Shown here: positions 3,556 through 56,024 of the stretch, in pieces
How positions within the stretch are numbered: the stretch's first letter is position 1
How the letters are laid out: the number at the start of each line of letters is the position of its first letter
Virus record (IMG/VR): IMGVR_UViG_3300037258_000150
Coordinates: 35 to 64,034 of that record
From: a virus
Lineage: Duplodnaviria > Caudoviricetes
Reading direction: 5' to 3' (one strand)
DNA length: 64,000 nucleotides
The notes under the pieces: generated by a model
The model's input: the letters and a program-made list of their open reading frames with translations, nothing else
The model's database searches: none
Told to the model about the DNA's origin: nothing
Position numbers and translations under genes: made by a program

Positions 3556-3578
3556 GCAACTGTGAGCGAGCCAGCGCT

Positions 3579-14117: not shown

Positions 14118-16199
14118 TCAATTGAACGTCAAGGTATTGATGGCCACGGTGGACTGGTTCGCGCCGTTTCCGGTGAGGCACACATAATTGGCGCCGAGGA
14201 CGAGCGCCACGGTCCCGAGCGTCACGTTGCCCGTGCCGGTGGGGATGCTCACGGAGCCAGAAGTCGAAAAGGGAGTTTTCTCCCCCGCCCATTCGAGCCC
14301 CGTAGAGCCAGCCGAGCCGCCGCTATTGGTGAGATTCGCGACGAGGGAGTAGGTGCCGGCCTTCGAGCAGTTGATAAGGAACGTCGCCTGATAGCTCGTG
14401 CTGTAGTTCGGCGCCCAGGACGGGGTGGCGAAGCCGCTACCACCGAGCGTCGCGACAGCGCCAGTGGCGTTGTCGATGTAGCAATTGCCCTGGATGATCG
14501 ACCCGGTACCGCTGACGACATTGCGGGTCAGGACGTAGGAGCCGGCATTCGCGGCGATTATCGCCGCTTGACGAGGTGATCCGCTCGTAACGAAAGTTGT
14601 CCAATCCTCCGCCGACTCATTGACTGGAGTGAGGCTCGTATTGGTGTTGACGTCAACCCCCGTCCACTGCGGAACTCCACGGGAGCCGCTATTGAGCACC
14701 CCTTGGTAGTAAGCCTCCATGACGGCGGTCATTCCAGGGTCTAGAATCGCGGCGCCAGCATTGACAAGTCCAGCATTCTCATTGTTAGTCTGCCAGCCGC
14801 CCTCGTAGCAGAGCATCGAGAGGCCATCCTTTAGCCCCACGCATAGGACAGCCTCGATGTCATAGACCGAGGTCGAGGGCGTATTGGCGAGTGGGACAGC
14901 CTGTGCCACGCTAAGCAACGTCGCCTGAATTTGCGCAATGGTGTTGCTGTACTGCCCGGAGGTGTATCCAGTGTTGAGATACGGCGCTAGAGCCGTCGAG
15001 TAGAAGTCATTCGCCACATTCCAGCCGTTCGTCGCATATTCCGAGCGCACGTGAGATCTGAAGGCTACTCCATTGCCTCCCGACTGCCATGCCGACACTA
15101 GCCGGACATCAGTTCCGTACCTCGCGCCAAAGACGCCCTGGAAGATGCTCGCAAAGTTGTGATTCTGATAGCAGTAGAAGGGAACTGGAGCATTGGTACC
15201 TCCATACGTGGTGGCTGCCGAAGCCCACGCAGCGATCCCGGCGCCCTCATTGTTCCACAGCTCATCTGACTGCTCGATGTAGATCGGCAGCCCCGGCGGC
15301 ACCAGCGCAAAGAGCGCGTTCGCAAGGTCCGTAATGTAGGTGAAACTGGCGTCGAATAAATTCGGCAGGTTGAGCCACATGGGGCGCCCGACCGCCATAC
15401 AAAAGGCCGCGAGGCACTCGAGCGGAATGCCTTCCAGTCCGTTGCCTTTGTTGTAGTAAAAGCACTGCGTATTGGCGGGCGTTGCGCGATTCGCCGATGT
15501 CATTACCGTCGAGATGAAGACGCATCCCGTCCAGTCCATGCCACGGATATAGCCGGCGTTGCGATAGGTTGCCAGAGCCTCGGGCGTGAAGGCCGAGGGT
15601 GAGAGCTTGTCGTCGATGACTGGGCTCGCGTAATAACTCGGTGGGTACGCCCAGACATTGGTAGCGCCGCCAGTGGTGCCGGTGACCTTGAAACCGGCGT
15701 TGGTGCCGACACTGTTCATGTCGAAAGTGGTGTAGGCGCCCCCAGTTCCGGGTACTACATTCGATACCGAGGCCCCGTTGACACCGGTGACTGTCTCCGC
15801 TCCCGTACCAATAAATCCGCACTTCCAGGTGCCTTGCATCCACTGCGCGCGAGTACTGACGAAGTTGCCCGCGTTCATGAAGATTGAGAAATCGGTGGTT
15901 GGCCAACCGGCGGAATCCACGGTGGTCAGCGCCGAGCCGGCGGAGTTGAACCACCCCTTGGCCTCTCGAATCCTGTTCCGGTAGATCGCGAGGCCCTCGT
16001 AGTAGGTCGAGCCAGACCCGCCGGCTGAGATGTTCATGCCGGCTGGCAATTGCAAAATACCGGCCTTGAGCACGGCGCCAGCAGCTTCTACAACAGAGCC
16101 CCCGGCGGTCACCACCTGCGCGCGCGCCTCCCGCAGCGCACCGCCAGCCGCCACAAGTGCCGCTCCGGTGCGCGCGAGCATTTGGCGGCGCGTGACCAT
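14118..16199 (-). CDS. Tat-signal glycoside-hydrolase-like protein (clan GH-A-like barrel) with C-terminal CBM-like domain
   Basis: MVTRRQML...ARA-Q signal; IRGMDW, GIPLE, WLNLP, IEQSDELWN, CYEGG motifs. Confidence 0.7.
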   Translation of the reverse strand: MVTRRQMLARTGAALVAAGGALREARAQVVTAGGSVVEAAGAVLKAGILQLPAGMNISAGGSGSTYYEGLAIYRNRIREAKGWFNSAGSALTTVDSAGWPTTDFSIFMNAGNFVSTRAQWMQGTWKCGFIGTGAETVTGVNGASVSNVVPGTGGAYTTFDMNSVGTNAGFKVTGTTGGATNVWAYPPSYYASPVIDDKLSPSAFTPEALATYRNAGYIRGMDWTGCVFISTVMTSANRATPANTQCFYYNKGNGLEGIPLECLAAFCMAVGRPMWLNLPNLFDASFTYITDLANALFALVPPGLPIYIEQSDELWNNEGAGIAAWASAATTYGGTNAPVPFYCYQNHNFASIFQGVFGARYGTDVRLVSAWQSGGNGVAFRSHVRSEYATNGWNVANDFYSTALAPYLNTGYTSGQYSNTIAQIQATLLSVAQAVPLANTPSTSVYDIEAVLCVGLKDGLSMLCYEGGWQTNNENAGLVNAGAAILDPGMTAVMEAYYQGVLNSGSRGVPQWTGVDVNTNTSLTPVNESAEDWTTFVTSGSPRQAAIIAANAGSYVLTRNVVSGTGSIIQGNCYIDNATGAVATLGGSGFATPSWAPNYSTSYQATFLINCSKAGTYSLVANLTNSGGSAGSTGLEWAGEKTPFSTSGSVSIPTGTGNVTLGTVALVLGANYVCLTGNGANQSTVAINTLTFN

Positions 16200-17278
16200 C
16201 AGCCGCAGGAATTCAACGCCGCGCCATTACTGACCATCGCGTGGTCGTTGGAGAGCATCGGCTTTGACACGCAGGTAGAGACCGGCGTATAGGTGATGAC
16301 GATGATGCCTTGAGCGCCGTGGCCGAAGCCGGTGTAGGAGGCATTACCACCCCCGCCGCCACCGCCGCCGTAGAGACCGCCATTACCGGGCGGATCCGCC
16401 GAGCCGGAAGCGATGGAACCGTTGCCGCCGCCGCCACCGCCCGACCCGTGCGTAGCGTCCCATTCAGTGCCCGCGCCTCCCACTCCGCCCGCGACGCCAG
16501 CCGCCGCAGTGCCGTTGCCAAACCCGCCGCCGCCGCCGCCTCCCGATGAACTCGATGCCGCCGAGCCAGCCCCTCCCGGCACCGTGCTCGATGTACCGCC
16601 TGCGCCGCCGGTGCCGCCCACTGTGCCGCCGCCGTTGGCCCCGAGCCCTCCGGCAGTGCCCGCAGTCGTCGTGCCGCCTGCGGTGCCGGCAGAGCCCCCG
16701 CCGGCCCCTCCGCCGCCTGAGCCGCCGGTGACGTTCGCCGTGCTCGCGGCCGCACCACCCGCAGCGCCATTGCCGTTCGGGCCACCGGCGGCACCTCCGC
16801 CCGTGCCCCCGCCGTTGGTCTCGGTTGTGTAGGCGCCACCGTTGCCGCCATTAAAAAGCGTGCCGCCAATACCGCCGGTGTTGCCGGTTTGACCCCCTCC
16901 GATCCCGGCCGCGCCACTAGTTAAGGCGCCGGTCCCATGACGAGCCAGAGCGGCGGCGGTAGAGACAATCCAAGTATCCGTCCCGCTCGCGCCTACTGTC
17001 GAACCCCCTGTACCGACCTGTAACGAAGCCCCGTTTGATATAGCAAGCGATAGGGTGACGGAATATTGACCGCCACCTCCGCCCGTACCGATGGAAGGAG
17101 TGTTGTTGCCCGCCTGCCCCGCGCCGCCTCCGGCAATGAGTTCTACTTTATCCGCCGTACCGGGCCAGTCGCCTGGAGCCGTGAAGGTGCCCGCGCCCGT
17201 CGTCGTGATGTAGATGACATTGGCGCGCGCCAGTGTCCAAAAGGCGGCGAGAGCAATTGCGGATAGAGTCGTTTTCAT
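16199..17278 (-). CDS. Signal-peptide glycine-rich adhesin/fibre-tip-like protein
   Basis: MKTTLSAIALAAFWTLARA-N; GTFTAP..VELIAGGG, polyglycine runs, GAQGIIVITY. Confidence 0.8.
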   Translation of the reverse strand: MKTTLSAIALAAFWTLARANVIYITTTGAGTFTAPGDWPGTADKVELIAGGGAGQAGNNTPSIGTGGGGGQYSVTLSLAISNGASLQVGTGGSTVGASGTDTWIVSTAAALARHGTGALTSGAAGIGGGQTGNTGGIGGTLFNGGNGGAYTTETNGGGTGGGAAGGPNGNGAAGGAAASTANVTGGSGGGGAGGGSAGTAGGTTTAGTAGGLGANGGGTVGGTGGAGGTSSTVPGGAGSAASSSSGGGGGGGFGNGTAAAGVAGGVGGAGTEWDATHGSGGGGGGNGSIASGSADPPGNGGLYGGGGGGGGNASYTGFGHGAQGIIVITYTPVSTCVSKPMLSNDHAMVSNGAALNSCG

Positions 17279-17301
17279 GTGGACACTTTTTCCCGGCGCC
17301 C

Positions 17302-18150
17302 TCACCCGCACGAATTCAGCGCACCGCCGTGACTCACGACCGGGTGGCCATTCGACAGCGCGGGTTTGTGCGTACAAGGGGCTGCGGGCTCGTGAAATAC
17401 CACGACGTACGTATCGAAGTTGTCAGTGCTCGCCGTCGGCGCCGTGAAGGTTGCGGTGCTCGCCGTCGTCGCCGTGACGCGCTGGTCCTCGATGAGCGCG
17501 AAGTTCGTGCCCGTGGCAAACTGCCAGAAGGCACCCCCGCGTGCGGTATAGCCGGTACCGACGACTGGCGGCCCATCGGTAGAGTGCAGGATCGTCGAGA
17601 ATCCAATGATGATCGCAGGCTGGCTCGACAGCGTCGGCGTGGCGCCACTCGTCACGCCATTTGGGGTGCCGGAACCAGGAGCAGGCCGCTGCGAGTTCCC
17701 GTTGTCTTCCCCCGTCACGAATGGCGCCGATGTGGAAAGGCCCGAGTACTCCACGCATGCGACGCCCTTGTAGAAACTGTTCAAGCTGCTGCCATTGAAT
17801 GTCGCTGTCACGGAGTCGGCAGAGCCCCCGGTGACATTGCTCGCGTAGTAGGTCTGCGTCTCGAAAAAGTTCGTCGCGTCCTGAAGCGTCTTCACCGCCG
17901 TGAACGTATTGCCCAGGGTATCCGTCAGCGGTATCGACGTCGGGAGCGCCGTGCTCGATCCCTCTCCATCAAAGTCAGCGACGCAGAAGAGCAGGTTTCC
18001 GGTCGTCAGTGTAGTCGCAAAATTTCCGCTGGCAACGGTAGTCGTGGTGTTCGTCGTGGTGCTGTTTTGCACCAACTGGATGAACGTGCCATTCGCGTGC
18101 GCGAGAGTGCAGAGCATCGAGAGGGCGAGTGTGGAGAGAAGTGTTTTCAA
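17302..18150 (-). CDS. Signal-peptide beta-sandwich adhesin-like protein
   Basis: TTG start behind AGGAA gives MKTLLSTLALSMLCTLAHA-N (alternative ATG 18177); Thr/Ser-rich beta strands. Confidence 0.75.
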   Translation of the reverse strand: MKTLLSTLALSMLCTLAHANGTFIQLVQNSTTTNTTTTVASGNFATTLTTGNLLFCVADFDGEGSSTALPTSIPLTDTLGNTFTAVKTLQDATNFFETQTYYASNVTGGSADSVTATFNGSSLNSFYKGVACVEYSGLSTSAPFVTGEDNGNSQRPAPGSGTPNGVTSGATPTLSSQPAIIIGFSTILHSTDGPPVVGTGYTARGGAFWQFATGTNFALIEDQRVTATTASTATFTAPTASTDNFDTYVVVFHEPAAPCTHKPALSNGHPVVSHGGALNSCG

Positions 18151-18183
18151 GATGACGTTCCTAGTTTGTGTTCCCATACTGAC

Positions 18184-20097
18184 TCACTGTGCCGCTCCAA
18201 CACTGTTGACGGTCTGACCCGCGCGCGGCTGCGCGTTCAGCCCAAAGTCGTTCACCGGGTTGATGCTTGCCGCGATTGCTGCCGCGATGGCAGCGCTGCT
18301 CGTGCCGAGCCGGATATCGCTATTCGGGAAGGTCGCGTTGTTCAAGAACTTCGGGTCAGCATAGATCTTGCTCGTACCGCAGCTCGCCGTGCCGGACGTC
18401 CAGCGTCCCTGGTAGTCGAAGCATAGGTTATTGGTCGCCGTCATGCCGCCGATCGAGCCGATGAAGTTCGAGACGAAGCCGCTTGTACCGGGGCTGAAGA
18501 CGAATATGTTGTTCGTTATCGTGAACGTGCCAACAGAGTTCGCGCCCTCATTGGCAATCTGAGCGATATAAGGGCCGCTGGTGTCAGAGTAGCCGTTCAT
18601 GAAGGTGTTGTTCTCGACGCGCACGGTTCCAGTATTGTCGCTGCTGCCGTCAAGCTCAAACGCCTCTCTAACGCTGCCGATCGCCACGTTATCCCACCAC
18701 AGGCTAGGTCCACCGGCGTTGCTCCACCCGTCCATCTTCATTACGTATTTAGCGGAGTGTTCAGACCAGTTGTGGTGCACCTCGACGTCATGGAAGCCGG
18801 TGGAACCCTCCTGGTGAAATTGGATGCACTGTCCGGTCTCGCAATTGATGATGACGTTGAAGCCGATCTCTACCCAGGCGGCATCGGTAACGCTCGTCGT
18901 GCCGTCCATGTAGATGCCGTGATTCTCCAGCGATGACGGATCGCCCCCGGAGATGTTATGCACATAGTTGCCCATAATCGCGACGTGATACCCATTGCCG
19001 ACGATACCACCAGCCTTCTGATGCGCCGCCCCGGTGCTGGTCGAATTCCACTGTACGTTCAAATTGACGAAGCGCGTGAAATCGGCGGCGTTTTGGAGAT
19101 TGAAGTTAGACGCGTCGGTCGAGCCGGGGCTGCCAGTGCAGTCCGAGCGCATATTGGAGACGGTCCAGTACTGGCCGTCAGTCGTCCCACCCGACCCGCC
19201 ACGGGCATGCTGGCTGTCCGTCCCCATGAAGCCACCCTCGCCGCCGGCCGGCGTCAGGATATAAACATCCTCTGGAGTATTCCCATTGATCGGTCCGGGG
19301 TAGCTCGTGAAGGCGAAGTAGCCGGTACCGATCGTGCCGGTCGGCGCGGTTCCCCCTTGAGTGTGAAACCGCAGCAGACGATTGTCGTATCCGACTTCAT
19401 CAGAGATCGGCGTACCGCTATTGCCCCGAATGATCTCCGAATCCCCAGGCCCGATGGTCGCCCAGACTCCGGTGAACGTGCTGCCGCCATTGGCGTTTTG
19501 AAGGTAGCGATACGGGTGGGTGATATCGTCCACCACACCGGTCGAGTCATTCCCATTGACCGTATCGACGAAGTAGAAATGCCCAGGCTGGATGACGAAG
19601 TTGAACGGATTCCCGAGCACATCCGTGGTGTTCGCCGCGACACCGTTGACGGTGAGGCCGATGGTGTACGTCGTGCCGGGAGTGAGCGCCTTGACCGCCG
19701 CCGAGCCGATCTGCACATTCAACGCGTCAATGGCAGCGAAGCCAGGTCGAATCCCGTTCGTCACCGCCGGCACGAGATAGCGGCAGTTCGCTATAGGAGC
19801 GCCGCCGATGGTCACCTGCGCGCCGGCTGAGGTGCACATATCGGCAGCCGAGCCGAGATTCTCCCCGTAGAGGGTGAGGTATGACCCGTCGCCGAATTCC
19901 CCGTTTGTCGCACTGCCTGAGACGATGTCGGTGTAAAGCAGTACGGGTGCCGAGCCGCCCCCACCACCAGAGAGCGCGATAATGCTGCCGCCGGCTGCGA
20001 CAACACTCGAACCGGACAGCAGGACCTGCGCGCCAGCGAGCGTCGTTAAGAGGAAAGTTGCCGCGCCCAGCAGCAGTTGTTTAAGCGTCACTTTCAC
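18184..20097 (-). CDS. Signal-peptide Ig-like plus right-handed beta-helix (depolymerase-like) protein
   Basis: MKVTLKQLLLGAATFLLTTLAGA-Q; LTLYGENLG; FVDTVNGNDSTG; Asn ladders GNYVHN, HGIY, ENNTF. Confidence 0.78.
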   Translation of the reverse strand: MKVTLKQLLLGAATFLLTTLAGAQVLLSGSSVVAAGGSIIALSGGGGGSAPVLLYTDIVSGSATNGEFGDGSYLTLYGENLGSAADMCTSAGAQVTIGGAPIANCRYLVPAVTNGIRPGFAAIDALNVQIGSAAVKALTPGTTYTIGLTVNGVAANTTDVLGNPFNFVIQPGHFYFVDTVNGNDSTGVVDDITHPYRYLQNANGGSTFTGVWATIGPGDSEIIRGNSGTPISDEVGYDNRLLRFHTQGGTAPTGTIGTGYFAFTSYPGPINGNTPEDVYILTPAGGEGGFMGTDSQHARGGSGGTTDGQYWTVSNMRSDCTGSPGSTDASNFNLQNAADFTRFVNLNVQWNSTSTGAAHQKAGGIVGNGYHVAIMGNYVHNISGGDPSSLENHGIYMDGTTSVTDAAWVEIGFNVIINCETGQCIQFHQEGSTGFHDVEVHHNWSEHSAKYVMKMDGWSNAGGPSLWWDNVAIGSVREAFELDGSSDNTGTVRVENNTFMNGYSDTSGPYIAQIANEGANSVGTFTITNNIFVFSPGTSGFVSNFIGSIGGMTATNNLCFDYQGRWTSGTASCGTSKIYADPKFLNNATFPNSDIRLGTSSAAIAAAIAASINPVNDFGLNAQPRAGQTVNSVGAAQ

Positions 20098-20109
20098 GCG
20101 GCTCCCCTA

Positions 20110-23100
20110 TCAGGAGGCGCCGCACATGAACCCGATGACATCCCCGGACACAATCGTGCCGCCGAGTGTCGCGCTGGTCGAGGTCCAGGTCGTCTGCTGG
20201 AACGTGTCGGCGGAGGTCGTCTTATCGAGCGACTTGCAGATCCATATCCCATTGTTGGCCGTGGGTAGCGTGATGACGGCTGTGGATACGCCACTCGTGC
20301 CCGAGCAGACGAAGCTGCCGATGGCCGTGCCACCAGTGAGCGTCGTCGTCGTCGCGCAGGCGCCAGTCCCTGAAGCGATGGTGAACGTAGTCCCGGTGTC
20401 ATCGAGATAGGTGACGGTAGACGCAGCCACCAGTTGATTGGAACTGTTGGACCCCAGAATCAACGCACTCGTCGGTACTGCCGCGCCGTTGACCTTGACG
20501 ACACTCGTCGCCACTGTACCCACGGTCGAGATGACATCGCCAGTGAGCGCTGGCATCTGCGCGGCTGCGAGCGTCCCGGAATTCACCTCACTGGCCGCGA
20601 TGGACTTGTTGGTGAGTGTCTGCGTCGCGGCTAGCCCTGTAGCAGTATCAGTGGCGGCAGGGAGCGTCCAGGTGTAATTGGTCGCGCTCGCATTGGCACT
20701 TGCCAACGCCGTCGTGCCCGTGCTCGATCCTTTGATGAGGATATCGCTGCCGGGGAACGTGTTTGCCGCGCCCCACGTCTGCGCGGTGGTGAGGCCCGCG
20801 ATGGTCTGCGAGGTCGCGGGGAACGTCATCGTCGTCGCGTCGGTGCCGGCAAGAGTGAGGGAGTTCGACACGGTCAATGTCTTGCCGCTCGTCACCGAAA
20901 GGCCGGTGACGCTGGTGGCAGCGATGGTGCCCGTGCTCACCGTAGCGAGACTCGCGCCCGCCCCGACCACCATGGCGGCCGTCGTGTTCGTGCTGCTGGT
21001 CAACGCGCTGAACGCCGTGCTGCCACCGCTGCCGCAATCGGAGCCGGTGCCGGAGACGACGCCCGAAGTGTTGACATGAAGGCACTGCGTGGAGCCCGTG
21101 ATACCCGCAATCGTGAGTGCGTTCTCTACTGCATTGCCCTGATAATTCACACTGAAAACAGAGGTGCCGCCATTGACGTAGAAATCGAAAATGTTTCCCA
21201 CATACGCGCTGGGGAAATTAGCAGCCCACAGCGTACCCCCGGTGCTGAACGTGGTAGGGGCAGTCGGGCCAGTTGGGTTGTAGTAGTTGTACGGCCAAGT
21301 GGTTGTGCCGGTACCCCCGGTAAAGATGGTCCCCTGCTCATATAGCGCAGAAGTGCTTGCCACTGGGTTGTACAAAAGAACCGCGCGGGCGCCAAAACTC
21401 TGAGAGAGCGACCAACTATTGGCCAGGTTGGTTTCAGCGACCTGTCCTGTGTTAGCCGGAAAGCTCGCCGTCGCAGAGCCCAACGCTCCCGTCACAGACA
21501 CCAGCGTCACCGTGCCGCTCGTCGCATTGCCCATTTGTATACTGCCGGCCGTACCCGAGGCCCCGAGCGTCAACGCGCCCGCCGTGATGGACGCGTTTGT
21601 CGTGCCCGACACCGCAGTACCCGTCGAGGCATAGTAGGCGAGCTGCGCTGCCGTGCCGCTATTGACGGTGCCGGAGCCGCCGCCGCCGCCACAGGTCGCT
21701 CCAGAACCGGCGACCACGCCCGAGGTATTCACCTGCAAGCACTGCGTAGAACCGGTGATTGCGGAAAGCGTCAACCCGGAAGCCGTCGCAGCCCCCAGCG
21801 TCGGGGTGGTGAAGGTCGGTGAGGTCGCGAATACGATGTTGCCGGTACCGGTCGCCCCCGCCGCCGTGACGCCGCCAATTGAGATATCGGTGCCGAAGGT
21901 CTGCAACGCGCTGAAGGTCTGCGCGAGGTTCAGCTCCGGGACGGTGCCGGTGTTCGCCGGAAAGGTCGCGGTGTAGTTCGTCGCGCCAGCATCGGAGGTC
22001 GTCAGCGTCACAGCGCCCGTGGATGAGCCCAGGAGGTCGAGGTTGTCGGTCGTCGTGAAGCTCGCGCCGCTCCCCACCACCATGGCGGCGGTGGTATTGG
22101 TCGCGCTGGAGAGAGACGAGAAGGGCAGCGTCGCGGTGGTCGTGCAGCCGATTAGCTGCCCAGAGCTATTGCTCGCGATGCAAGTCTGACTCGCCGGTAC
22201 CGTGGCGCCGTTCACCTGGTCAGCGTTCAGGACCCCGGTGCCGGAGAAGGTGAGCGTGCCGCCGGTGCCCACCGTCATGGTGGCAGTCGTATTGGTCGCG
22301 GTCGTGATGGCGGAGAAGGCCGGCGCGCCCCCGCAGCCGGCGCCTGAACCCGCCACGACGCCGGAGGTGTTCACCTGAAGGCACTGAGTGGAGCCTGTGA
22401 TCGAGGAGAGGGTGAGCCCCGAGGCCGTGGCAGCGCCGAGGGTCGGGGTGACGAGCGAGGGCGACGTGGCGAAGACGACGGCGCCCGCGCCCGTTTCACC
22501 CGTCACGGCGGCAGCGAAGTTCGCACTTGACGGGGTGGCCAAGAAGGTGGCGACGCCCGTGCCGAGGCCTGAGACGCCAGTCGCGATGGGCAAACCGACC
22601 AGGTTCGTCGCGGTGCCGCCGGAGGGAGTGCCGAGTGCACCCCCATTGACGACGGGCGCGCCGGCCGTGCCGACGTTGATGGCGAGCGCGGTAGCGACCC
22701 CAGTGCCAAGGCCGGTGAGGCCTGAGAGCGGAGAACTGGTGGCGGTGATCGTGCCGGAGCCGGTCGCGGCGAGACTCGCGCCGGTGCCGACTAGCATGGC
22801 GGCGGTGGTGTTGGTGCTGCCGGTAAGGGCGCTGAATGCGGTCGCGCCGGTCGCGCTCGCAGTGATGGTCTGATTGGGCCAGGAGCCGGTGATCGTGACG
22901 TTGGTGCCGGCGACGAGACTTGGAGTGGTAGTACCGGAGCCGCCACTGGTCACTGCCAAGGGCGTCGCTAGCACGAGAGTCGGCATCGAAATGGCAGATA
23001 CCCCGCTGGAACCAGTGTGGTTAAACAGCAGGCTGCTAGTTGGATTGGTACCAGTTCCTATTTGATCTTGTATAGACCAATTATCAACAGCTGAAGCCGA

Positions 23101-23934
23101 CCCAGTCCAATACGTGCCGGCTATATTCACAAGAGGCGAAGAAAAATTGCTCCCCGAGGTTGCCGCGATGAATGTAGCAAAGTGCTGTGAGAGAGGCCAA
23201 TTGGGGCTAATAACACTCGTCGGTATGAGATTGGTTGCGCTATAGCTAACATCCCAAGCTGAACCAGTGGAATTGGCTATGCCGACGCCGGGATATACCA
23301 TGCCCCCACCGCCAGTCGCATTCACCGTCTGATTGGGCCAGGCCCCAGTAATCGTGACGTTCGTCCCCGCAACCAAACTCGGCGATGCCGTCCCAGTGCC
23401 GCCGTGCGCGACCGGCAGCAATCCAGTCACCCCAAGCGTAAGGTCCAACTGCCCGAAGACCGCCGTCCCCGAGGAGCCATCCGACAGCAGCGGATACCCC
23501 AGAGTCCCCAGCGCGATGCCGCCGAACGTACCGGAATTGTTGTACTGGAGCTCGAAATTGGAACCACCGGGAGAGCCGCCGCCGGGGCAGCTTCCCCATG
23601 AGCCAAGGCCTGCGGTCGTGGTAGAGAGGAAGCACTGCGAAGGTGTTGTGGTTGTCGGCCCCGTCACAAATTCCGATGCCGTCGCCGGAATGGTGACGCC
23701 GCCGATGCTCGTCACCCCGGAAATCATCGAACTGAAAGCCGGGTAGCCCGTCGAACCGTTCGAGACGTAGGCCTGACCCGCACTCCCGGGCCCGATCCCG
23801 TAGCAATGGGTCGGGTCACTGAAGCTACAGGTCTGGTACTTCGTCTGCGCGAGCGCCTGGTGCGGGTGCGCGAAACTGCCCACGATGGCGAGAGCCAGGA
23901 GAAGGAGGGGGCGCCTCCAGAGATCAATGTTCAA
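20110..23934 (-). CDS. Large repetitive tail-fibre-like protein with signal peptide
   Basis: TTG overlapping the upstream TGA gives MNIDLWRRPLLLLALAIVGSFAHPHQALA-Q; phage fibre motifs LPVAHGGTG, GLGTGVATFLATPSSAN, VFATSP.L.TP.LG, TQTLTNK. Confidence 0.8.
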   Translation of the reverse strand: MNIDLWRRPLLLLALAIVGSFAHPHQALAQTKYQTCSFSDPTHCYGIGPGSAGQAYVSNGSTGYPAFSSMISGVTSIGGVTIPATASEFVTGPTTTTPSQCFLSTTTAGLGSWGSCPGGGSPGGSNFELQYNNSGTFGGIALGTLGYPLLSDGSSGTAVFGQLDLTLGVTGLLPVAHGGTGTASPSLVAGTNVTITGAWPNQTVNATGGGGMVYPGVGIANSTGSAWDVSYSATNLIPTSVISPNWPLSQHFATFIAATSGSNFSSPLVNIAGTYWTGSASAVDNWSIQDQIGTGTNPTSSLLFNHTGSSGVSAISMPTLVLATPLAVTSGGSGTTTPSLVAGTNVTITGSWPNQTITASATGATAFSALTGSTNTTAAMLVGTGASLAATGSGTITATSSPLSGLTGLGTGVATALAINVGTAGAPVVNGGALGTPSGGTATNLVGLPIATGVSGLGTGVATFLATPSSANFAAAVTGETGAGAVVFATSPSLVTPTLGAATASGLTLSSITGSTQCLQVNTSGVVAGSGAGCGGAPAFSAITTATNTTATMTVGTGGTLTFSGTGVLNADQVNGATVPASQTCIASNSSGQLIGCTTTATLPFSSLSSATNTTAAMVVGSGASFTTTDNLDLLGSSTGAVTLTTSDAGATNYTATFPANTGTVPELNLAQTFSALQTFGTDISIGGVTAAGATGTGNIVFATSPTFTTPTLGAATASGLTLSAITGSTQCLQVNTSGVVAGSGATCGGGGGSGTVNSGTAAQLAYYASTGTAVSGTTNASITAGALTLGASGTAGSIQMGNATSGTVTLVSVTGALGSATASFPANTGQVAETNLANSWSLSQSFGARAVLLYNPVASTSALYEQGTIFTGGTGTTTWPYNYYNPTGPTAPTTFSTGGTLWAANFPSAYVGNIFDFYVNGGTSVFSVNYQGNAVENALTIAGITGSTQCLHVNTSGVVSGTGSDCGSGGSTAFSALTSSTNTTAAMVVGAGASLATVSTGTIAATSVTGLSVTSGKTLTVSNSLTLAGTDATTMTFPATSQTIAGLTTAQTWGAANTFPGSDILIKGSSTGTTALASANASATNYTWTLPAATDTATGLAATQTLTNKSIAASEVNSGTLAAAQMPALTGDVISTVGTVATSVVKVNGAAVPTSALILGSNSSNQLVAASTVTYLDDTGTTFTIASGTGACATTTTLTGGTAIGSFVCSGTSGVSTAVITLPTANNGIWICKSLDKTTSADTFQQTTWTSTSATLGGTIVSGDVIGFMCGAS

Positions 23935-24308
23935 GAGGTGACTCCTGGGGATACCGTCACGGCGCCACTTAGGAACCGCGTGACACCCCCTGACGGATCG
24001 GTGAGCAATAGGTCGTAAACGCCAGACCACCAGGTGAACCCTTCGGTCGTCGCGGCGGGAATCGCGAGCGTGATCGTCCCGGCAGCGCCGCCCAAGGTGA
24101 TATCAGGGCTCGCGTCATAGAGCACGGTCGGCGACAGCGCGAAGGCTCGAATTTGCATGGTCGCCGTCCAGCCGGTGAGGTCCACCGGGGTCGGCGCGGC
24201 GCCCGCTGGTCCGCCGGGAACGGGCAGTGTGGTCCAGGTGAGGACTTTGGTCAGGGTCGCGCCCTGGGCTACACAAAGGTCATAGGTCGGGGTGCAGCAG
24301 CCACTCAC
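23931..24308 (-). CDS. BppU-N/LtfC-like Ig-fold fibre adaptor protein
   Basis: QGAT...PVDLTGWTATMQIR...GTITL.I...T.....GVYDL......VTRFLSG.VTVSP.VT. Confidence 0.8.
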   Translation of the reverse strand: MSGCCTPTYDLCVAQGATLTKVLTWTTLPVPGGPAGAAPTPVDLTGWTATMQIRAFALSPTVLYDASPDITLGGAAGTITLAIPAATTEGFTWWSGVYDLLLTDPSGGVTRFLSGAVTVSPGVTS

Positions 24309-30585: not shown

Positions 30586-30587
30586 GA

Positions 30588-31804: not shown

Positions 31805-31806
31805 AG

Positions 31807-32987: not shown

Positions 32988-32989
32988 AG

Positions 32990-33655: not shown

Positions 33656-33658
33656 ATA

Positions 33659-34042
33659 CTATGACCAACTTATGCTGACTGACATTCCACTTCCGGGCAC
33701 CACGAGTATCCCAGAGTCGCAGGCCATATTCACCACATACGGCTCACCGTTACTCGCCGCAGTCTCCGGAATTATCCACAGCGGCATTACCTGCGCGATA
33801 CTGGCCGAGTCGTAGATCATCCCCGTGGTCGAGCCGGCGGTGATGATGCTGACGGAGGCGACTCTTCCGGGGGATGTCTTGACTACCTTGGGGGCCGTGA
33901 TCGCCTCGGTGGTGGAGGCGCCGTTGACGTCCTTAAATGCCTGCGTCGCGCCGTTTAACGCAATGACGAGATTCTTGATGCTCGTCAGAATGTCAGAGAG
34001 AGAGGCTCCAGGCTGCGGTGTTTGTGTCGTCGGGTTGGGCAT
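33659..34042 (-). CDS. Small virion (tail) protein
   Basis: ASLSDILTSIKNLV helix plus beta domain ending GILVVPGSG; follows the nozzle gene. Confidence 0.65.
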   Translation of the reverse strand: MPNPTTQTPQPGASLSDILTSIKNLVIALNGATQAFKDVNGASTTEAITAPKVVKTSPGRVASVSIITAGSTTGMIYDSASIAQVMPLWIIPETAASNGEPYVVNMACDSGILVVPGSGMSVSISWS

Positions 34043-36102: not shown

Positions 36103-36105
36103 GGC

Positions 36106-36888: not shown

Positions 36889-37643
36889 TCGGCCTTCTTG
36901 GCATGACGCCGTCTGGCTGCCATTGCTATATTCGCGCGCCCCTCCGGTGACTTGCGTTTTCCTTTGTTGCCAGCAGAAATAGCGGCACGATGAGCCGCTG
37001 ACATGGGGCCAAGTTTTTTTCCTTTCTTGGCAGCCGATAACTTAGCGCGTGTCTCTGCCGTTTGAATTCTAGGCTTACCAACATGCGACAAACGCAGCGC
37101 TTCTTTGACATGCGGAGGCATTGGACGCCCCTTGGATGCGGCACCGATGTTTGCTTTGTGCTCCTCGGTAAAATAGCGCTTTTTCCCGCGATTTATAGAA
37201 GCGAGCATCTCTATCACTGCGGTATTGACTTTCCTGCCAGCAGCTCTAGCGGCTATTCTTGCGCGCGTCTCTGCCGAGCGCTTACGGCCAGTGTGAAACG
37301 CCACAGTCTTGGCGATAGCCTCTGGAGTATGCTTATAGCCAGAACAGCCTTCACCGCCGCAACTCAAGTTCACCAGGCCGAACCCGGCATCGCGCCAATA
37401 AGCTATTCTTTCTCGCTCCATGGCGAAAGCGGCTTCTTCCGATAGTCGGTTGGCGACGATCCTGATTTGGATGGAGACCCCCAAGGCCGCTAACTGAGAC
37501 CGCATGGCGACATGAGTGCTATTGCGGCCGTTAAGCATATCGGATGACCGGGAGCCATGACCTTTCCCGACGTAGAAGGGGACATTGATATCGCTGCGCC
37601 AGTGTTCATAAACGTAAAATTTGGTATCGTCTGTGTCAGCCAT
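36885..37643 (-). CDS. GIY-YIG-type homing endonuclease with NUMOD3 repeats
   Basis: FYVYEHWRSD...FYVGKG...R, E...I....LVNL..GGEG, repeated SAETRAKLS-type motifs; GAGGA RBS before ATG 37643. Confidence 0.88.
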   Translation of the reverse strand: MADTDDTKFYVYEHWRSDINVPFYVGKGHGSRSSDMLNGRNSTHVAMRSQLAALGVSIQIRIVANRLSEEAAFAMERERIAYWRDAGFGLVNLSCGGEGCSGYKHTPEAIAKTVAFHTGRKRSAETRARIAARAAGRKVNTAVIEMLASINRGKKRYFTEEHKANIGAASKGRPMPPHVKEALRLSHVGKPRIQTAETRAKLSAAKKGKKLGPMSAAHRAAISAGNKGKRKSPEGRANIAMAARRRHAKKAE

Positions 37644-37675
37644 GATCGCATCCTCATCATGCATCGTGGTTAGGG

Positions 37676-37716
37676 GGCGCGTGACGTTCGTAGCGTCTCG
37701 CGTCCTCCGAATTATA
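37676..37716 (-). promoter_or_regulatory. Putative endonuclease-associated promoter (-10 TATAAT) followed by a hairpin
   Basis: Minus strand reads TATAAT...gacgcgagacg-ctacgaa-cgtcacgcg...ctaacca, then RBS. Confidence 0.5.
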
Positions 37717-37730
37717 GCTGCAGCACGATC

Positions 37731-37796
37731 CGCCAGCACCCCCAGCTGCTGAACGTAGGCGTTGTATGAGAGAGGAGTGGTGGCTGAGGCTGTCAT
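37731..37796 (-). pseudogene. Orphan 5' fragment of an alternative allele of the adaptor gene
   Basis: MTASATTPLSYNAYVQQLGVLA aligns with MSSPNPLSFNAWVQTIGSLA of 36106-36888. Confidence 0.7.
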
Positions 37797-37799
37797 GTT

Positions 37800-38543
37800 T
37801 TAGTAGTAGAAGACCGGATAGCTGCCGCCCGAGGAAAGAGGACACGAGGTAGTCCATGTCCAAATACCAGCCGCACCCGTATAAGAGTAAGTCGCACTGG
37901 AGGTTAAATAGAGAGTGCCGTTTATCGACAAACCGGTGACATAACCAGAGTTAGAAGACGGCAGGAATACATCTAAAGATAGAGTGCCACTACTTGAATC
38001 GCAAAGAAGTGAGGGCACTCCATGTCCGTTGTAATCGGTACTCGGAGACAGAGAGCCGATACCGATTGAGGTCGAATAGCCCGTGAGATTGGGAGAACTG
38101 AAGCCAGCCACCAGAGTTGCAGTGCCAGCCGATGGAGGTAACAGCGGGATGCGCGTAAGAGAGACCGAGACATCGGCGTATGGGGCTGATATCGGTCTCG
38201 CATCACTCACAAGACATTGGGCTACTCCGCTGTAGGTGGTATTGGCAACTGCGCCGCTTACAGTGAAGTTGGTAGTCGCACTCGCAGAGGATCCGATCGA
38301 AATGCCTGCGCCACCGCTCGCCCATGACCAACCGTACACATATGGAGGAATTCCACCTTTCCCGGTGCACGTCGTGGACGCGGATGTCAGCGTCGCACTG
38401 GGATTGCTGTAGGTGATAGCCGTAGGGGATGCCGAGGAACTCAGAACAGCGATGGCGCCAGCGAGTAGGATATTCAGAACCCCGCCAGCGCGGGCGACGC
38501 GCGGCAGCAACGCGAGCAGGATATACGGGACGAAGCGCTTCAT
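37800..38543 (-). CDS. Signal-peptide fibre-tip/adhesin-like protein
   Basis: MKRFVPYILLALLPRVARA-GGVLNILLAG; Ig-like GG.PPY.Y.W; two Cys pairs. Confidence 0.7.
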   Translation of the reverse strand: MKRFVPYILLALLPRVARAGGVLNILLAGAIAVLSSSASPTAITYSNPSATLTSASTTCTGKGGIPPYVYGWSWASGGAGISIGSSASATTNFTVSGAVANTTYSGVAQCLVSDARPISAPYADVSVSLTRIPLLPPSAGTATLVAGFSSPNLTGYSTSIGIGSLSPSTDYNGHGVPSLLCDSSSGTLSLDVFLPSSNSGYVTGLSINGTLYLTSSATYSYTGAAGIWTWTTSCPLSSGGSYPVFYY

Positions 38544-39793
38544 CAGGTAATCCCTGAACCGCTGATGACGAAGGTCGTGCTATTCACGCACAATATTGTG
38601 GCAAGCCCTACTGAGGTGAGGGTCCTGGAACCGCTTGTGACGTTTCCAATTGCCCAGTAAAGAGTCACACCGCCAGCGGGCGCGATGGTAAAGGACGTTG
38701 TGCCATTGAGCGCCAGAATCGTGATGACATCACCGCCTGAGAATACTCCGGAGGGTATCGTCACGGTCCCCGAGCTACCATCAAGCTCTACGGTCTTACC
38801 ACGGTCCGCGAGTGTTAGGGGGTAACTGCCGCCCTGCACATTGAGCGGCGTACCCAAGTATCCGACTTGAAATAGACCGTTTCCCGCACTGTCTGAAATT
38901 CCGACCGTGCCATCGCCCAGGACTCGGAAGAAGCTAGTCGTCCCTGCGCGATTTTTCACCTCTAATGCGACATCGCTGGAATTCGTTCCGGCGGTGACAA
39001 GTAATCCATTCGATGATCCAGTCGTGGAACTGCCGATGACCTTGGTGTACTGAGCCAGTCCATTCGTGACATCAAGCGCATCATTGCTCGCGTTTCCATT
39101 GATCGCGAGCCCGACGCCGCTCGCGGGCGCCATCGTGGTCGAGCCCGTCCACGTCGGCGAGGAGGAGAGCGGCAGGTCAGCGTCCACCATGCCGCGGAAA
39201 CTCGGCAGCGCCGGGGTCCCTGAGGCGGGACCGGCAAAAAGCGTGTTCGCCGATTCGTTCACGACCGAGAATGGCGTGATGCACCCGGTGGCGTTGCCAT
39301 TTGCGAGGATGCCCTGTGCGGCCTGCCCGCTCGAGCACAGCGCTGGCGTGGAGGCCAGTGCCGTGGCCGCTGCGGCCAGCGTGGCGGTGGCGGCGTTACC
39401 GGTCGTGCTTTGGTTCAGCGTCGGGAAATTACCGGCTACGGCCGCCTGCAATCCGCTGCCGGTGGAATACCCAATACCGGTAAATGTCGGCGCCAGAGTG
39501 ATCGCTGCGGCCGTGGTCGGGTTTGCGACAGACCCCGACAAGCCATTTGCGGACACGACGGACACCGAGGTAACGGTCCCGGTTGAACTTCCCACCGGGA
39601 CCCCGTTGACGTATAGGCCCTGGACATTGAGCGTTCCGGGGCCGAACCCGGCGCCGGCGGCGGATCCTAAGACCATGCCGGTGGTGGTCGAGTATGCGAT
39701 CCCGGGCGGCGGGAAGTAGTTGTAGACCGGGGATGACTGCGCGAGCGCCGTAGCGGCAAAGAGCGCCAGGATGGTCCATCGCAAATACTTCAT
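38543..39793 (-). CDS. Signal-peptide tail-fibre protein
   Basis: MKYLRWTILALFAATALA-Q; GTVTSVSVVSANG, FPTLNQSTTGNAATAT, PSFR..V.AD.P; C-terminal RTL...GLATILCV..TFVISGSGIT fibre domain. Confidence 0.8.
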   Translation of the reverse strand: MKYLRWTILALFAATALAQSSPVYNYFPPPGIAYSTTTGMVLGSAAGAGFGPGTLNVQGLYVNGVPVGSSTGTVTSVSVVSANGLSGSVANPTTAAAITLAPTFTGIGYSTGSGLQAAVAGNFPTLNQSTTGNAATATLAAAATALASTPALCSSGQAAQGILANGNATGCITPFSVVNESANTLFAGPASGTPALPSFRGMVDADLPLSSSPTWTGSTTMAPASGVGLAINGNASNDALDVTNGLAQYTKVIGSSTTGSSNGLLVTAGTNSSDVALEVKNRAGTTSFFRVLGDGTVGISDSAGNGLFQVGYLGTPLNVQGGSYPLTLADRGKTVELDGSSGTVTIPSGVFSGGDVITILALNGTTSFTIAPAGGVTLYWAIGNVTSGSRTLTSVGLATILCVNSTTFVISGSGIT

Positions 39794-55995: not shown

Positions 55996-56024
55996 TTACT
56001 CTCTCCTAACGGTCGTATGATGGA

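What the first reader, a model, noticed from the sequence alone, without database searches (positions are those of the whole stretch)
14118..39793. Candidate new system: phage tail-fibre/adhesin proteins that carry export signal peptides
Seen: seven fibre or adhesin genes start with basic-hydrophobic-AxA signals: 14118-16199 (Tat, TRRQML), 16199-17278, 17302-18150, 18184-20097, 20110-23934, 37800-38543 and 38543-39793. Capsid, portal, adaptor, nozzle and ejection proteins have none. The mature parts contain motifs typical of phage fibres, and two of the genes sit inside the neck/tail gene order. Established: tailed-phage virions are understood to assemble in the cytoplasm from signal-less proteins. 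Inference: these appendages are exported to the periplasm, fold there and join the virion at or after inner-membrane breakdown; alternatively they form a phage-encoded cell-surface filament. I know of no description of this but could not search the literature.
Basis: partly seen in the sequence, partly recalled or inferred. Interest (0 to 1): 0.92.

Follow-up and report, generated by a model that had tools for sequence, protein, structure and literature searches.

The report
Phage tail fibres carrying export signals
In this uncultured soil phage every long fibre-like or enzyme-like tail appendage gene begins with a bacterial secretion signal, so these parts probably fold outside the cytoplasm where tailed-phage particles are built, a route I found in no paper.

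Summary
Observation confirmed. The window is a complete 64-kb short-tailed phage genome from soil. All seven ORFs start with signal-like N-termini at the best-supported start codons. A crude rule flags 7 of 7, against 1 of 66 other ORFs and 1 of 165 core proteins in 11 related genomes. No trained predictor was available.

The signals are under selection. 19 of 19 homologues of 38543-39793 keep a variable signal ahead of a conserved mature N-terminus. They are add-ons to ordinary fibre parts:
- 17302-18177 aligns from its predicted cleavage site to a signal-less relative.
- An N-terminal fibre module that starts at residue 1-6 in 139 of 150 database proteins follows a signal directly in a few relatives.

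Signal-bearing proteins hold about four times more cysteine than signal-less fibres. This phage and one relative are the only 2 of 11 complete genomes with no long signal-less fibre.

Export is likely (about 0.85). Joining the particle at lysis is my preferred but unproven reading (about 0.35).

The scan has noted the same pattern before on other phage DNA. My six topic searches found no description in print.

The parts
14118..16199 (-). g1, 693 aa. Twin-arginine-type signal (MVTRRQML...REARA|QVV), then a large enzyme-like core and a C-terminal beta domain.
   Evidence: Start overlaps the stop of g2. Flagged by the heuristic. The Atlas model's core resembles secreted or surface bacterial proteins and one half-viral cluster, TM 0.57-0.72. 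No Pfam, PHROG, NCBIfam or PDB sequence match. 11 Cys in the mature part.
16199..17278 (-). g2, 359 aa. Sec-type signal (MKTTLSAIALAAFWTLARA|NV), a glycine-rich body and a C-terminal Cys-bracketed 24-aa tag shared with g3.
   Evidence: The C-terminal 34 aa are 53% identical to g3, E 1e-8.
17302..18177 (-). g3, 291 aa. Sec-type signal (…LCTLAHA|NG), then a domain homologous to a signal-less ORF in a relative's fibre cluster.
   Evidence: Residues 30-219 align to residues 6-180 of the signal-less 242-aa ORF L117:6361-7089(-), 30% identity, E 8e-10. A signal-bearing homologue exists in L020.
18184..20097 (-). g4, 637 aa. Sec-type signal (…TTLAGA|QVLL), then a TIG plus right-handed beta-helix type enzyme-like protein.
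   Evidence: GGGGAG lies 5 nt before the GTG. Atlas feature look-alikes score 0.96 to TIG/'disaggregatase-related' clusters, commonest in Acidobacteriota; this is a lead only. No phage match by tblastn.
20110..23934 (-). g5, 1274 aa. Sec-type signal (MNIDLWRRPLLLLALAIVGSFAHPHQALA|QTKYQ), then a long repetitive fibre with 16 Cys.
   Evidence: The TTG start lies behind AGGAG and overlaps the stop of 23931-24308. Segments match signal-less fibres of relatives: L020, L076, L080, L083, at 55-72% over 39-133 aa. Cys count.
23931..24308 (-). p125, a signal-less 125-aa protein immediately upstream of g5. Conserved in relative G001.
   Evidence: phrog_1084, E 3e-24. 67% identical to L019:21370-21825.
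37800..38543 (-). g6, 247 aa. Signal-like N-terminus followed by a second hydrophobic stretch. Exported or membrane-anchored; fold unknown.
   Evidence: 4 Cys.
38543..39793 (-). g7, 416 aa. Sec-type signal (MKYLRWTILALFAATALA|QSSPVYNYF), a conserved mature N-terminus, fibre shaft repeats and a C-terminal domain shared with phage tail fibres.
   Evidence: The ATGA overlap with p152. 19 of 19 homologues keep the signal. The C-terminal 100 aa match fibres of Synechococcus phages S-CBS2 and S-B28 and others, E 1e-9. The shaft motif occurs in signal-less fibres.
39790..40248 (-). p152, a signal-less short fibre: an N-terminal 'anchor' module plus a C-terminal knob. Candidate docking partner of g7.
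   Evidence: Anchor profile E 3e-21. Homologues in relatives carry collagen-like inserts or are fused to long fibres. 0 Cys.
11795..12190 (-). The only other signal-bearing ORF of the window, in the lysis block downstream.
   Evidence: Neighbours include an endolysin-type and an esterase/lipase-type protein.

Best explanation
The seven proteins are late-operon phage appendage parts. Six are exported through the inner membrane by Sec and one probably by Tat. Their signals are cut off, often leaving an N-terminal glutamine, and they fold in the periplasm with disulfide bonds.

The head, the tail hub and short signal-less 'anchor' proteins (39790-40248, perhaps 23931-24308) assemble in the cytoplasm. 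The holin then opens the inner membrane and the cell lyses. The two pools mix, and the exported distal fibres and enzyme modules dock onto the particle. So the host-recognition gear is a split fibre: a cytoplasmic anchor plus a periplasm-matured distal part.

Shown here (by computation only):
- signal-like N-termini, and their conservation in homologues;
- their add-on position relative to signal-less homologues;
- cysteine enrichment;
- operon coupling;
- the absence of any long signal-less fibre in this genome.

Inferred: actual export (about 0.85), disulfide bonding, and docking to the virion. Docking is the weakest step. The confidence given is for the whole chain including docking.
For: 1. 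Signals are real features. 7 of 7 are flagged, against 1 of 66 other ORFs and 1 of 165 core proteins. Start codons are supported by Shine-Dalgarno sites or by overlap with the upstream stop.

2. Selection. 19 of 19 g7 homologues (45-77% identical) keep a basic-hydrophobic-AxA N-terminus: 18 of 19 by the strict rule, 19 of 19 by the loose rule. The signal varies in sequence (majority fraction 0.58), while the first 40 mature columns are conserved (0.81).

3. The signal is an add-on to fibre parts.
- g3 aligns from residue 30 to residue 6 of a signal-less homologue.
- The anchor module starts at residue 1-6 in 139 of the best 150 hits, out of 9,168 database hits.
- It follows a signal directly in the L021 protein (E 4e-7), in P0270 (1.5e-8) and in P0297 (2e-10). 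It does so more weakly in the 707-aa protein of L062/G004 and the 568-aa protein of L054 (E 0.08-1).

4. Adaptation to an oxidising compartment.
- 27 signal-bearing proteins hold 1.52 Cys per 100 aa (185 in 12,201 aa).
- 25 signal-less fibres and anchors hold 0.36 (47 in 13,009 aa).
- A cysteine pair sits inside the anchor in 3 of 3 signal-bearing rows and in 0 of 14 signal-less rows of alignment A6, and also in P0270 and P0297.

5. Fibre identity. The g7 C-terminus matches phage fibres. Shaft segments of g5 and g7 match signal-less fibres.

6. Split architecture. In 6 of 18 related loci with an anchor ORF, a signal-bearing ORF follows at once (L040, L020, L054, L030, L032, L033), as in the window. 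In L068, L076, L070 and L083 the same slot holds one long signal-less fibre that begins with the anchor.

7. Replacement. Of 11 complete genomes, only the window (7 signal-bearing) and G001 (3) have neither the canonical terminal fibre nor any long signal-less fibre.

8. Co-expression with virion genes. The overlaps are ATGA, TGATG and TTGA. Promoter- and terminator-like sites do not exceed chance.
Against: - No experiment, no virion proteomics and no cultured relative with such proteins. The cultured relatives CRP-901 and DSL-LC04 have signal-less, cysteine-poor fibres.
- No trained signal predictor was run.
- No tailed phage is known to add periplasmic proteins to its particle. Later checks of similar notes elsewhere in this scan priced that reading at about 10 in 100.
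- The phage is not left without a signal-less receptor-binding candidate. The knob of p152 could serve, so the replacement argument is not compelling.
- The anchor module occurs in tandem copies in some proteins, so it may be a shaft element rather than a docking element.
- Signal-plus-anchor was found in none of the best 150 database hits (8 of the 11 late-starting hits were inspected). It is statistically firm for only three proteins.
- g1 and g4 resemble secreted bacterial enzymes and could act free.
- 5 of the 7 mature proteins have even cysteine counts (g1, g4 and g7 are odd in the table after removal of 30 residues), so pairing is not perfect.
Confidence: 0.35

Rival explanations
1. The proteins are exported but never become part of the particle. 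They fold in the periplasm and are released at lysis, or reach the surface by a host secretion system. They then act free. The enzymes g1 and g4 strip capsule or exopolysaccharide. The fibre-like g5 and g7 coat receptors on debris or on the infected cell. This would cut loss of progeny or block superinfection, as phage-encoded envelope proteins do.
For: - Export is the plain meaning of a signal peptide.
- g1 and g4 resemble secreted bacterial proteins.
- They lie next to the lysis block.
- Phage-encoded exported proteins are known: lambda Lom (passage in PMC12309495), Q-rule signal proteins of Porphyromonas phages (passages in PMC10367356), and sortase substrates and outer-membrane proteins of huge phages (passages in 10.64898/2026.10.24.761521).
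- p152 gives the particle a signal-less knob.
- Many relatives carry signal-bearing proteins in addition to a full set of signal-less fibres (G003, G004, G310, G318).
Against: - A receptor-binding fibre in the periplasm cannot reach a surface receptor before lysis, and lysis would release a cytoplasmic protein just as well.
- A 1274-aa fibre is a costly decoy.
- The fibre-type N-terminal module sits directly behind a signal in several proteins.
- The window and G001 have no other long fibre.
- The genes overlap virion genes.
Confidence: 0.3
2. The hydrophobic N-termini do not lead to export. They would tether the proteins to the cytoplasmic face of the membrane, be removed by a phage protease, or aid folding or trimerisation. 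The fibres would then join the particle in the cytoplasm as usual.
For: - Matrishin and others (PMC10367356, passage read) report predicted signals on major capsid proteins, which they think the prohead protease cuts. So predicted signals on phage structural proteins need not mean export.
- No trained predictor or experiment was available here.
- g6 has a second hydrophobic stretch.
Against: - The full n-h-c layout with AxA and a following Gln is kept in 19 of 19 homologues while the sequence drifts.
- Fourfold cysteine enrichment and cysteine pairs gained only in signal-bearing versions are hard to explain for cytoplasmic proteins.
- One protein has a twin-arginine motif.
- Core virion proteins are not flagged: 1 of 165.
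Confidence: 0.12
3. The genes are cargo for the lysogen. They would form a phage-borne cell-surface adhesin or filament set, expressed from the prophage to change adhesion or biofilm.
For:
- Bdellovibrio uses phage-fibre-like trimeric proteins with signal peptides as surface adhesins (PMC10769870, passages read).
Against: - The genes sit inside the late operon and overlap virion genes.
- Promoter- or terminator-like sites do not exceed chance: 4 found against 2.6 expected, and 4 against 6.7; then 1 against 3.0, and 8 against 5.3.
- No usher, pilus or secretion machinery was seen in the window.
- g7 homologues lie on contigs of at most 68 kb, which is phage-sized.
Confidence: 0.08
4. Artefact of start choice or chance hydrophobic N-termini.
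For: - Starts were chosen by eye.
- g1 has an alternative internal GTG behind GGGAGG, and g3 has downstream TTG/GTG codons.
Against: - 7 of 7 against 1 of 66, p = 5e-9.
- No alternative start exists for four of the genes.
- The signal region is kept as an open, hydrophobic coding stretch in 19 of 19 homologues.
Confidence: 0.03

Closest known systems
Signal-less tail fibres of the same short-tailed phage family. These are the anchor-type fibres of L068, L076, L070 and L083, and the canonical terminal fibre of MW202675.1, G003 and G004.
   Same: Same gene slots, same N-terminal anchor module, shared shaft repeats and, for g7, a shared type of C-terminal domain.
   Different: They start directly with the anchor or fibre N-terminus, have no signal and hold about a quarter of the cysteine. 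Here the anchor is a separate 152-aa protein and the distal part carries the signal.
Bdellovibrio bacteriovorus mosaic adhesive trimer (MAT) fibres (Caulton and others 2024, PMC10769870; passages read).
   Same: Phage-tail-fibre-like proteins with a signal peptide followed at once by a conserved N-terminal domain. This shows that this fibre type can be exported and fold outside the cytoplasm. Their variable tips are recalled from memory, not from the passages read.
   Different: MATs are chromosomal genes of a predatory bacterium and decorate its own surface or vesicle. Here the genes lie in the late operon of a tailed phage. No sequence comparison with MATs was made.
Phage-encoded exported envelope proteins. 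These include lambda Lom (passage in PMC12309495), Q-rule signal proteins of Porphyromonas gingivalis phages (PMC10367356), and sortase substrates and beta-barrel proteins of huge phages (10.64898/2026.10.24.761521). Bor, Cor and T5 Llp are recalled from memory.
   Same: Phage genes, often near tail-fibre genes, whose products use the host's general secretion route. Many cleavage sites here also expose Gln, as in the Q-rule.
   Different: Those proteins are small membrane proteins, lipoproteins or proteins of unknown function, are not homologous to fibres, and are discussed as host-modifying factors. None of the passages I read mentions tail fibres with signals.
Filamentous phage coat proteins pIII and pVIII (recalled; the gIII signal peptide is named in the listing of PMC9402515).
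   Same: Virion proteins made with Sec signals and matured outside the cytoplasm, with disulfides in pIII (the disulfides are recalled).
   Different: Inoviruses assemble at the membrane and extrude without lysis. Here a tailed, DNA-packaging, lytic-cassette phage is involved.
Late in-vitro addition of tail fibres and tailspikes to finished particles (T4 fibres, P22 tailspike; recalled classical complementation work, no paper read).
   Same: It shows that fibres can bind finished particles after cell breakage, which the proposed route needs.
   Different: In those phages both partners are cytoplasmic.

Membership tests
Sec-type (signal peptidase I) signal peptide | Basic n-region, hydrophobic h-region of about 7-15 residues, and a c-region with small residues at -3 and -1 | tested here: met
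   The strict home-made rule flags g1-g7. The false-positive rate is 1 of 165 core proteins. g6 is doubtful because of a second hydrophobic stretch.
Sec-type (signal peptidase I) signal peptide | The feature is kept in homologues while the sequence drifts | tested here: met
   19 of 19 g7 homologues. Not tested for g1, g2, g4, g5 or g6.
Sec-type (signal peptidase I) signal peptide | Positive call by a trained predictor (SignalP, DeepTMHMM), and cleavage shown by experiment | not testable with these tools
Tat (twin-arginine) signal peptide, for g1 | S/T-R-R-x-F-L-K-type motif, a mildly hydrophobic h-region and a basic c-region | tested here: inconclusive
   T-R-R-Q-M-L, AALVAAGGAL and REARA are seen by eye. 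No Pfam or NCBIfam family matched g1; that those libraries hold a Tat-signal model is recalled.
Tail fibre or tailspike of a tailed phage | Shaft or receptor-binding modules homologous to known phage fibres | tested here: met
   g7 C-terminus; g5 and g7 shaft segments; g3. Not met for g1, g4 and g6: no phage-fibre match.
Tail fibre or tailspike of a tailed phage | N-terminal particle-binding module on the same polypeptide | tested here: not met
   None of g1-g7 matches the anchor profile. In the window only p152 does. Signal-plus-anchor proteins exist in relatives.
Tail fibre or tailspike of a tailed phage | Made without a signal and assembled in the cytoplasm; present in purified virions | not testable with these tools
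   The signal is present. Virion content is unknown. No cultured relative has such proteins.
Moron or lysogenic-conversion envelope protein (Lom/Bor type) | Own promoter and terminator, expressed from the prophage | tested here: not met
   Start and stop codons overlap with virion genes. Promoter- and terminator-like sites are at or below chance. This is a weak consensus test.
Bdellovibrio MAT fibre family | Conserved ~130-aa beta-rich domain right after the signal; S74 chaperone in one subfamily; bacterial chromosomal genes | not tested
   Only the paper's passages were read. No MAT sequence was compared. The context here is a phage genome.

The most novel reading that the evidence does not exclude
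Two-compartment assembly of a tailed phage. The head, the tail hub and short anchor proteins are built in the cytoplasm. The whole distal host-recognition set (fibres, beta-helix enzyme, glycanase-like enzyme) is exported by Sec or Tat and cut by signal peptidase. It is then disulfide-bonded in the periplasm and snaps onto the anchors only when the holin opens the inner membrane. The periplasm would thus serve as an oxidative folding chamber for virion parts. Particles in the cytoplasm would be fibreless and non-infectious until lysis.
Probability: 0.3. Interest if true: 0.9.

Novelty: new variant of a known kind. Interest (0 to 1): 0.72.

Why it matters
Textbook assembly of tailed phages takes place wholly in the cytoplasm. 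If these appendages mature in the periplasm and join the particle at lysis, several things follow:
- Assembly would span two compartments.
- Host secretion and disulfide machinery would become host factors for infectivity.
- Fibres could carry disulfides, and perhaps other periplasmic modifications, that help them survive in soil.
- Lysis timing would become part of morphogenesis.

Even if the proteins act free, a large class of uncultured phages would be sending fibre-like binders and enzymes into the envelope of the infected cell, which is unexplored biology.

Practical consequences:
- Gene callers and annotation pipelines that treat a signal peptide as evidence against a virion role would mislabel these genes.
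- Expressing such receptor-binding proteins in the cytoplasm for host-range or biotechnology work would probably fail.

The question is directly testable by export fusions and virion mass spectrometry once a host is found.

Tried and rejected
- **Family searches.** Pfam, PHROGs and NCBIfam gave nothing for the seven proteins, even at loose thresholds. PDB sequence searches of g1, g4 and g5 gave nothing usable.
- **Complex prediction.** I tested three copies of p152 with three copies of g7 residues 20-125. The result was no answer (score 0.00), which is neither for nor against binding.
- **Structure of p152.** The model was poor (mean pLDDT 63). Foldseek against the PDB found no match at E <= 0.001. 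The best weak rows were a 'chaperone-substrate complex' (6o38) and the N-terminal part of phage CBA120 tailspike 4. I do not use them.
- **Host.** Searching g4 in 301 genomes of the phylum of L076's genome (a MAG whose record title names Terracidiphilus) gave 2 weak partial matches. It gave none in three genomes holding related prophage-like loci. The host stays unknown. Genome bins holding related nozzle genes span many phyla and may be mis-binned.
- **p125 relatives.** A scan of viral contigs found none.
- **g2.** It gave no alignment against a signal-less glycine-rich ORF of L049.
- **BLASTP of signal-bearing against signal-less proteins.** A search across the 11 complete genomes, signal-bearing against all other ORFs, gave four pairs: the g3 pair, two short shaft matches, and a 61-aa N-terminal match between the 614-aa signal-bearing protein of G310 and a 183-aa ORF of G314.
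- **All-against-all BLAST of the seven.** It showed only low-complexity similarity, apart from the g2/g3 C-terminal tag.
- **Profile search of 1.84 billion representatives.** It defined the anchor family. It showed no signal-plus-anchor protein among the best 150. I inspected 8 of the 11 hits where the match starts late, and all 8 had tandem copies or other N-termini, not signals.
- **Sequencing runs.** One DNA run is listed, a soil metagenome that may be the source. No RNA holder is listed.
- **Literature.** Seven searches (only located a named paper) and passages of six papers gave no description of signal-bearing tail fibres.
- **A faulty rule.** My looser signal rule gave false positives such as p152 from an internal start, the ejection protein and the p225-type protein. 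I therefore counted only hand-checked cases.

Full report
**What the window is.** The window is nearly all of a 64,034-base virus record that CheckV rates complete. One soil-metagenome run holds the stretch and may be its source. On the minus strand a late operon runs in this order:
- large terminase (52283-53914), portal (49437-51785) and major head protein (43982-44896);
- adaptor-like proteins, then a nozzle-type 'virion structural protein' (34042-36102, phrog_3287);
- two large ejection-type proteins (26602-30585, 24305-26614);
- a block holding an endolysin-type protein (12229-12579) and an esterase/lipase-type protein (9572-10480).

The nearest public phage record is the uncultured MW202675.1, with 49% identity in the nozzle protein. 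Cultured phages are far more distant.

**The observation.** All seven ORFs are present. Their starts are as well supported as sequence alone allows:
- Four overlap the stop codon of the gene before: TGATG at 16199 and 38543, ATGA at 39793, TTGA at 23934.
- Two lie behind good Shine-Dalgarno sites: AGGAG before 23934, GGGGAG before 20097.
- For four genes, no other start codon exists that would drop the hydrophobic segment.

I wrote a strict rule: net positive n-region, a 10-residue uncharged core of mean hydropathy 2.0 or more, and small residues at -3 and -1. It flags all seven. It flags one further real ORF of the window (11795-12190, in the lysis block) and 1 of 165 core proteins of 11 complete related genomes. 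In the window this is 7 of 7 against 1 of 66, Fisher p = 5e-9.

This is not a trained predictor, and none was on hand. Three reservations apply:
- The twin-arginine reading of g1 rests on the motif T-R-R-Q-M-L, a weak h-region and a basic c-region. No profile model matched.
- g1 also has an internal GTG behind GGGAGG that could give a signal-less form.
- g6 has a second hydrophobic stretch and may stay in the membrane.

**The signals are under selection.** A search with g7 found 119 proteins. I aligned the 18 best with it; most cover its whole length, at 45-77% identity and on contigs of at most 68 kb. All 19 sequences begin with a basic residue or two, a hydrophobic run and an A-x-A or A-Q site: 18 of 19 by the strict rule and 19 of 19 by the loose one. 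The signal itself drifts (majority fraction 0.58 over 19 columns). The mature N-terminus VYNYFPPPGI and the next 40 columns are conserved (0.81). That is the pattern of a cleaved signal in front of a functional N-terminus.

**The proteins are fibre parts, and relatives have signal-less versions.**
- The C-terminal 100 residues of g7 match the C-termini of tail-fibre genes of Synechococcus phages and others.
- The g7 shaft motif occurs in 15 viral loci. Of these, 9 have plain fibre N-termini, 2 could not be judged, and 4 (one sequence on four contigs) again start with a signal.
- That last lineage (L005) has three further signal-bearing proteins between the capsid gene and the adaptors.
- Segments of g5 match signal-less fibres in L020, L076, L080 and L083.
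- g3 aligns from its residue 30, just after the predicted AHA|NG site, to residue 6 of a signal-less 242-aa ORF in the fibre cluster of the complete relative G319 (30% identity, E 8e-10). The signal is therefore an N-terminal add-on.
- g1 and g4 are different. They look like secreted bacterial enzymes: a large fold shared with Calx-beta, PA14 or CBM9-bearing surface proteins, and a TIG plus beta-helix type commonest in Acidobacteriota. These are leads only.

**A split fibre.** Upstream of g7, with an ATGA overlap, lies a signal-less 152-aa protein (39790-40248). Its first 45 residues form an 'anchor' module (L-P-x-A...G-x-E...Q-x-G...R-x-T...Q-I-A).

A profile of this module finds 9,168 representative proteins at E <= 0.001. 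In the best 150 the match starts at residue 1-6 in 139. I inspected 8 of the other 11, and they had tandem copies or other N-termini and no signal.

The nozzle family gave 49 viral and 16 genomic loci. Within it:
- The same gene slot holds one long signal-less fibre beginning with the anchor in L068 (1604 aa), L076 (638), L070 (647) and L083 (582 and 865).
- Of 18 loci with an anchor ORF, 6 have a short or collagen-containing anchor protein followed at once by a signal-bearing ORF: L040, L020, L054, L030, L032 and L033. The window does the same.
- The Pedobacter-binned contig L078 repeats the layout at 39% nozzle identity.

More telling, the anchor module itself follows a signal directly in several proteins:
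- the L021 protein (i-E 4e-7 against 6,549 frames);
- its homologue P0270 (1.5e-8);
- the unrelated P0297 (2e-10);
- more weakly, the 707-aa protein that fills the slot in the complete genome G004 (E 0.2-1) and the 568-aa protein of L054 (E 0.08-0.7).

In the alignment, the predicted mature N-terminus falls where Met1/Ala2 of the signal-less proteins lie.

**Cysteines.**
- 27 signal-bearing fibre-like proteins from the window and relatives hold 185 Cys in 12,201 mature residues (1.52 per 100). 20 of the 27 have even counts.
- 25 signal-less fibres and anchors hold 47 in 13,009 residues (0.36 per 100).
- In the g7 family one pair (C153, C171) is invariant. Extra cysteines come and go in pairs by inspection of the alignment.
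- Inside the anchor module a cysteine pair is present in the 3 signal-bearing rows and in none of the 14 signal-less rows of alignment A6. It is also present in P0270 and P0297.

This fits oxidative folding outside the cytoplasm, although disulfides could in principle also form after release.

**Survey of complete genomes.** I fetched 10 further records rated at least 90% complete and listed all late-strand ORFs.
- A canonical signal-less terminal fibre (N-terminus T-x-N-K...W...P-x-N...I-D-x-A-L-G-G) is present in 8 of the 11 (5 by pattern, 3 by eye). It is absent from the window and G001 and was not seen in G314.
- Nine genomes carry two to seven long signal-less fibre-like ORFs.
- The window and G001 carry none. 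They have 7 and 3 signal-bearing proteins instead.
- The other genomes have 0 to 3 signal-bearing proteins (G003 1; G004 2-3; G310 1-2; G318 1; G314 0-1; G312, G313, G317 and G319 0).

So the signal-bearing set can add to, or wholly replace, the usual fibre set. The short p152 knob remains as a possible signal-less receptor binder, so replacement is suggestive rather than compelling.

**Operon structure.** The seven genes are packed against virion genes with overlapping codons. Promoter- and terminator-like sites in both blocks are at or below the number found in shuffles. That argues against independent moron cassettes, but it is a weak test.

**How it most likely works.** Export by Sec (Tat for g1), cleavage and disulfide bonding in the periplasm is well supported by indirect evidence, at about 0.85.

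For what follows, I prefer docking onto the particle when the holin and lysis mix the compartments (about 0.35 for the whole chain). Four points favour this reading:
- The proteins are homologous to virion fibres.
- They take over the fibres' gene slots.
- They can carry the fibre N-terminal module right behind the signal.
- They are co-translated with short signal-less anchors.

Fibres and tailspikes of model phages bind finished particles in lysates (recalled), so late docking is mechanically plausible.

The main rival (0.3) is that they act free after release, which suits g1 and g4 best. The remaining rivals are:
- signals that do not export (0.12);
- lysogen cargo (0.08);
- artefact (0.03).

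**Known work.**
- Seven full-text searches (only located a named paper) found no account of tail fibres with export signals.
- The nearest are Matrishin and others 2023, who report signal peptides on capsid, spanin and five unknown genes of Porphyromonas phages that follow the Gln-at-+1 rule (passages read).
- A 2026 preprint on huge phages describes sortase substrates with signals (passages).
- The Bdellovibrio MAT fibres have a conserved domain right after the signal peptide (passages).
- The scan's own notebook shows the same pattern noted on many other phage genomes. Follow-up agents confirmed the observation. Later checks put the virion-joining reading near 10 in 100.
- My own evidence that goes beyond those notes, for this window, is the signal-plus-anchor proteins and the complete-genome survey.

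**Limits.**
- Everything is computational.
- The signal rule is home-made.
- The host is unknown.
- The complex prediction gave no answer.
- The p152 model was poor.

Noticed in passing
window 16115-16135 (minus strand): Inside the signal-coding part of g1, a GGGAGG lies 11 nt before a GTG at 16115. That GTG sits at the predicted mature N-terminus. One gene might therefore give both an exported and a signal-less form.
   Followed up: no
cleavage sites of g1, g4, g5, g7 and of relatives (A2; L019, L033, L062, L054, P0297): Most predicted cleavage sites expose Gln (ARA|Q, AGA|Q, ALA|Q). This resembles the 'Q-rule' described for Bacteroidetes (abstract of PMC10653852 in the listing; PMC10367356). 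It may hint at the host group or at pyroglutamate capping.
   Followed up: partly
window 16199-16273 and 17302-17376; 16059-16115 and 19966-20025: g2 and g3 end in the same Cys-bracketed tag. Their last 34 aa are 53% identical, E 1e-8. g1 and g4 share a short Gly/Val-rich stretch right after the signal (seen). These are possible docking peptides between the exported proteins.
   Followed up: partly
G003, G310, G312, G314, G318 (loci L094-L129), fibre clusters between capsid and adaptor genes: Relatives with signal-less fibres carry collagen-like (G-P-T repeat) fibres of 600-1150 aa. They also carry one or two ORFs that start like glycosyltransferases (MKIAVYAIAKNE...; my reading by eye, no family search) in the same cluster. 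The window and G001 have neither.
   Followed up: no
proteins P0120-P0142, P0180, P0259: The N-terminal anchor module forms a very large family: 9,168 representatives at E <= 0.001. In some proteins it occurs as two to five tandem copies. Its role (docking or shaft element) is open.
   Followed up: partly
G001 (L121), opposite strand: record positions 49704-50762 and 54195-56426: The closest complete relative with only signal-bearing fibres also has two further exported proteins on the other strand. One is a 352-aa protein with a lipobox-like N-terminus (…LIAGC). The other is a 743-aa signal-bearing protein.
   Followed up: no
window 30588-31304, 32990-33655, 36885-37796: Three homing-type nucleases sit between virion genes: an endonuclease VII/HNH type, an HNH type, and a GIY-YIG type. 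One of them lies between g6 and the adaptor gene.
   Followed up: no
window 40252-41175: A conserved family protein next to the anchor gene holds 8 Cys, including CxxC pairs near its N-terminus. It may be a zinc ribbon. It is signal-less and present in nearly all relatives.
   Followed up: no
L002 (MW202675.1) 1639-2403 and 3443-3850: In the nearest public relative, the slot before the adaptor gene holds the lysis genes plus two signal-bearing proteins. One is annotated as nuclease-like. So this slot collects exported proteins in several lineages.
   Followed up: no
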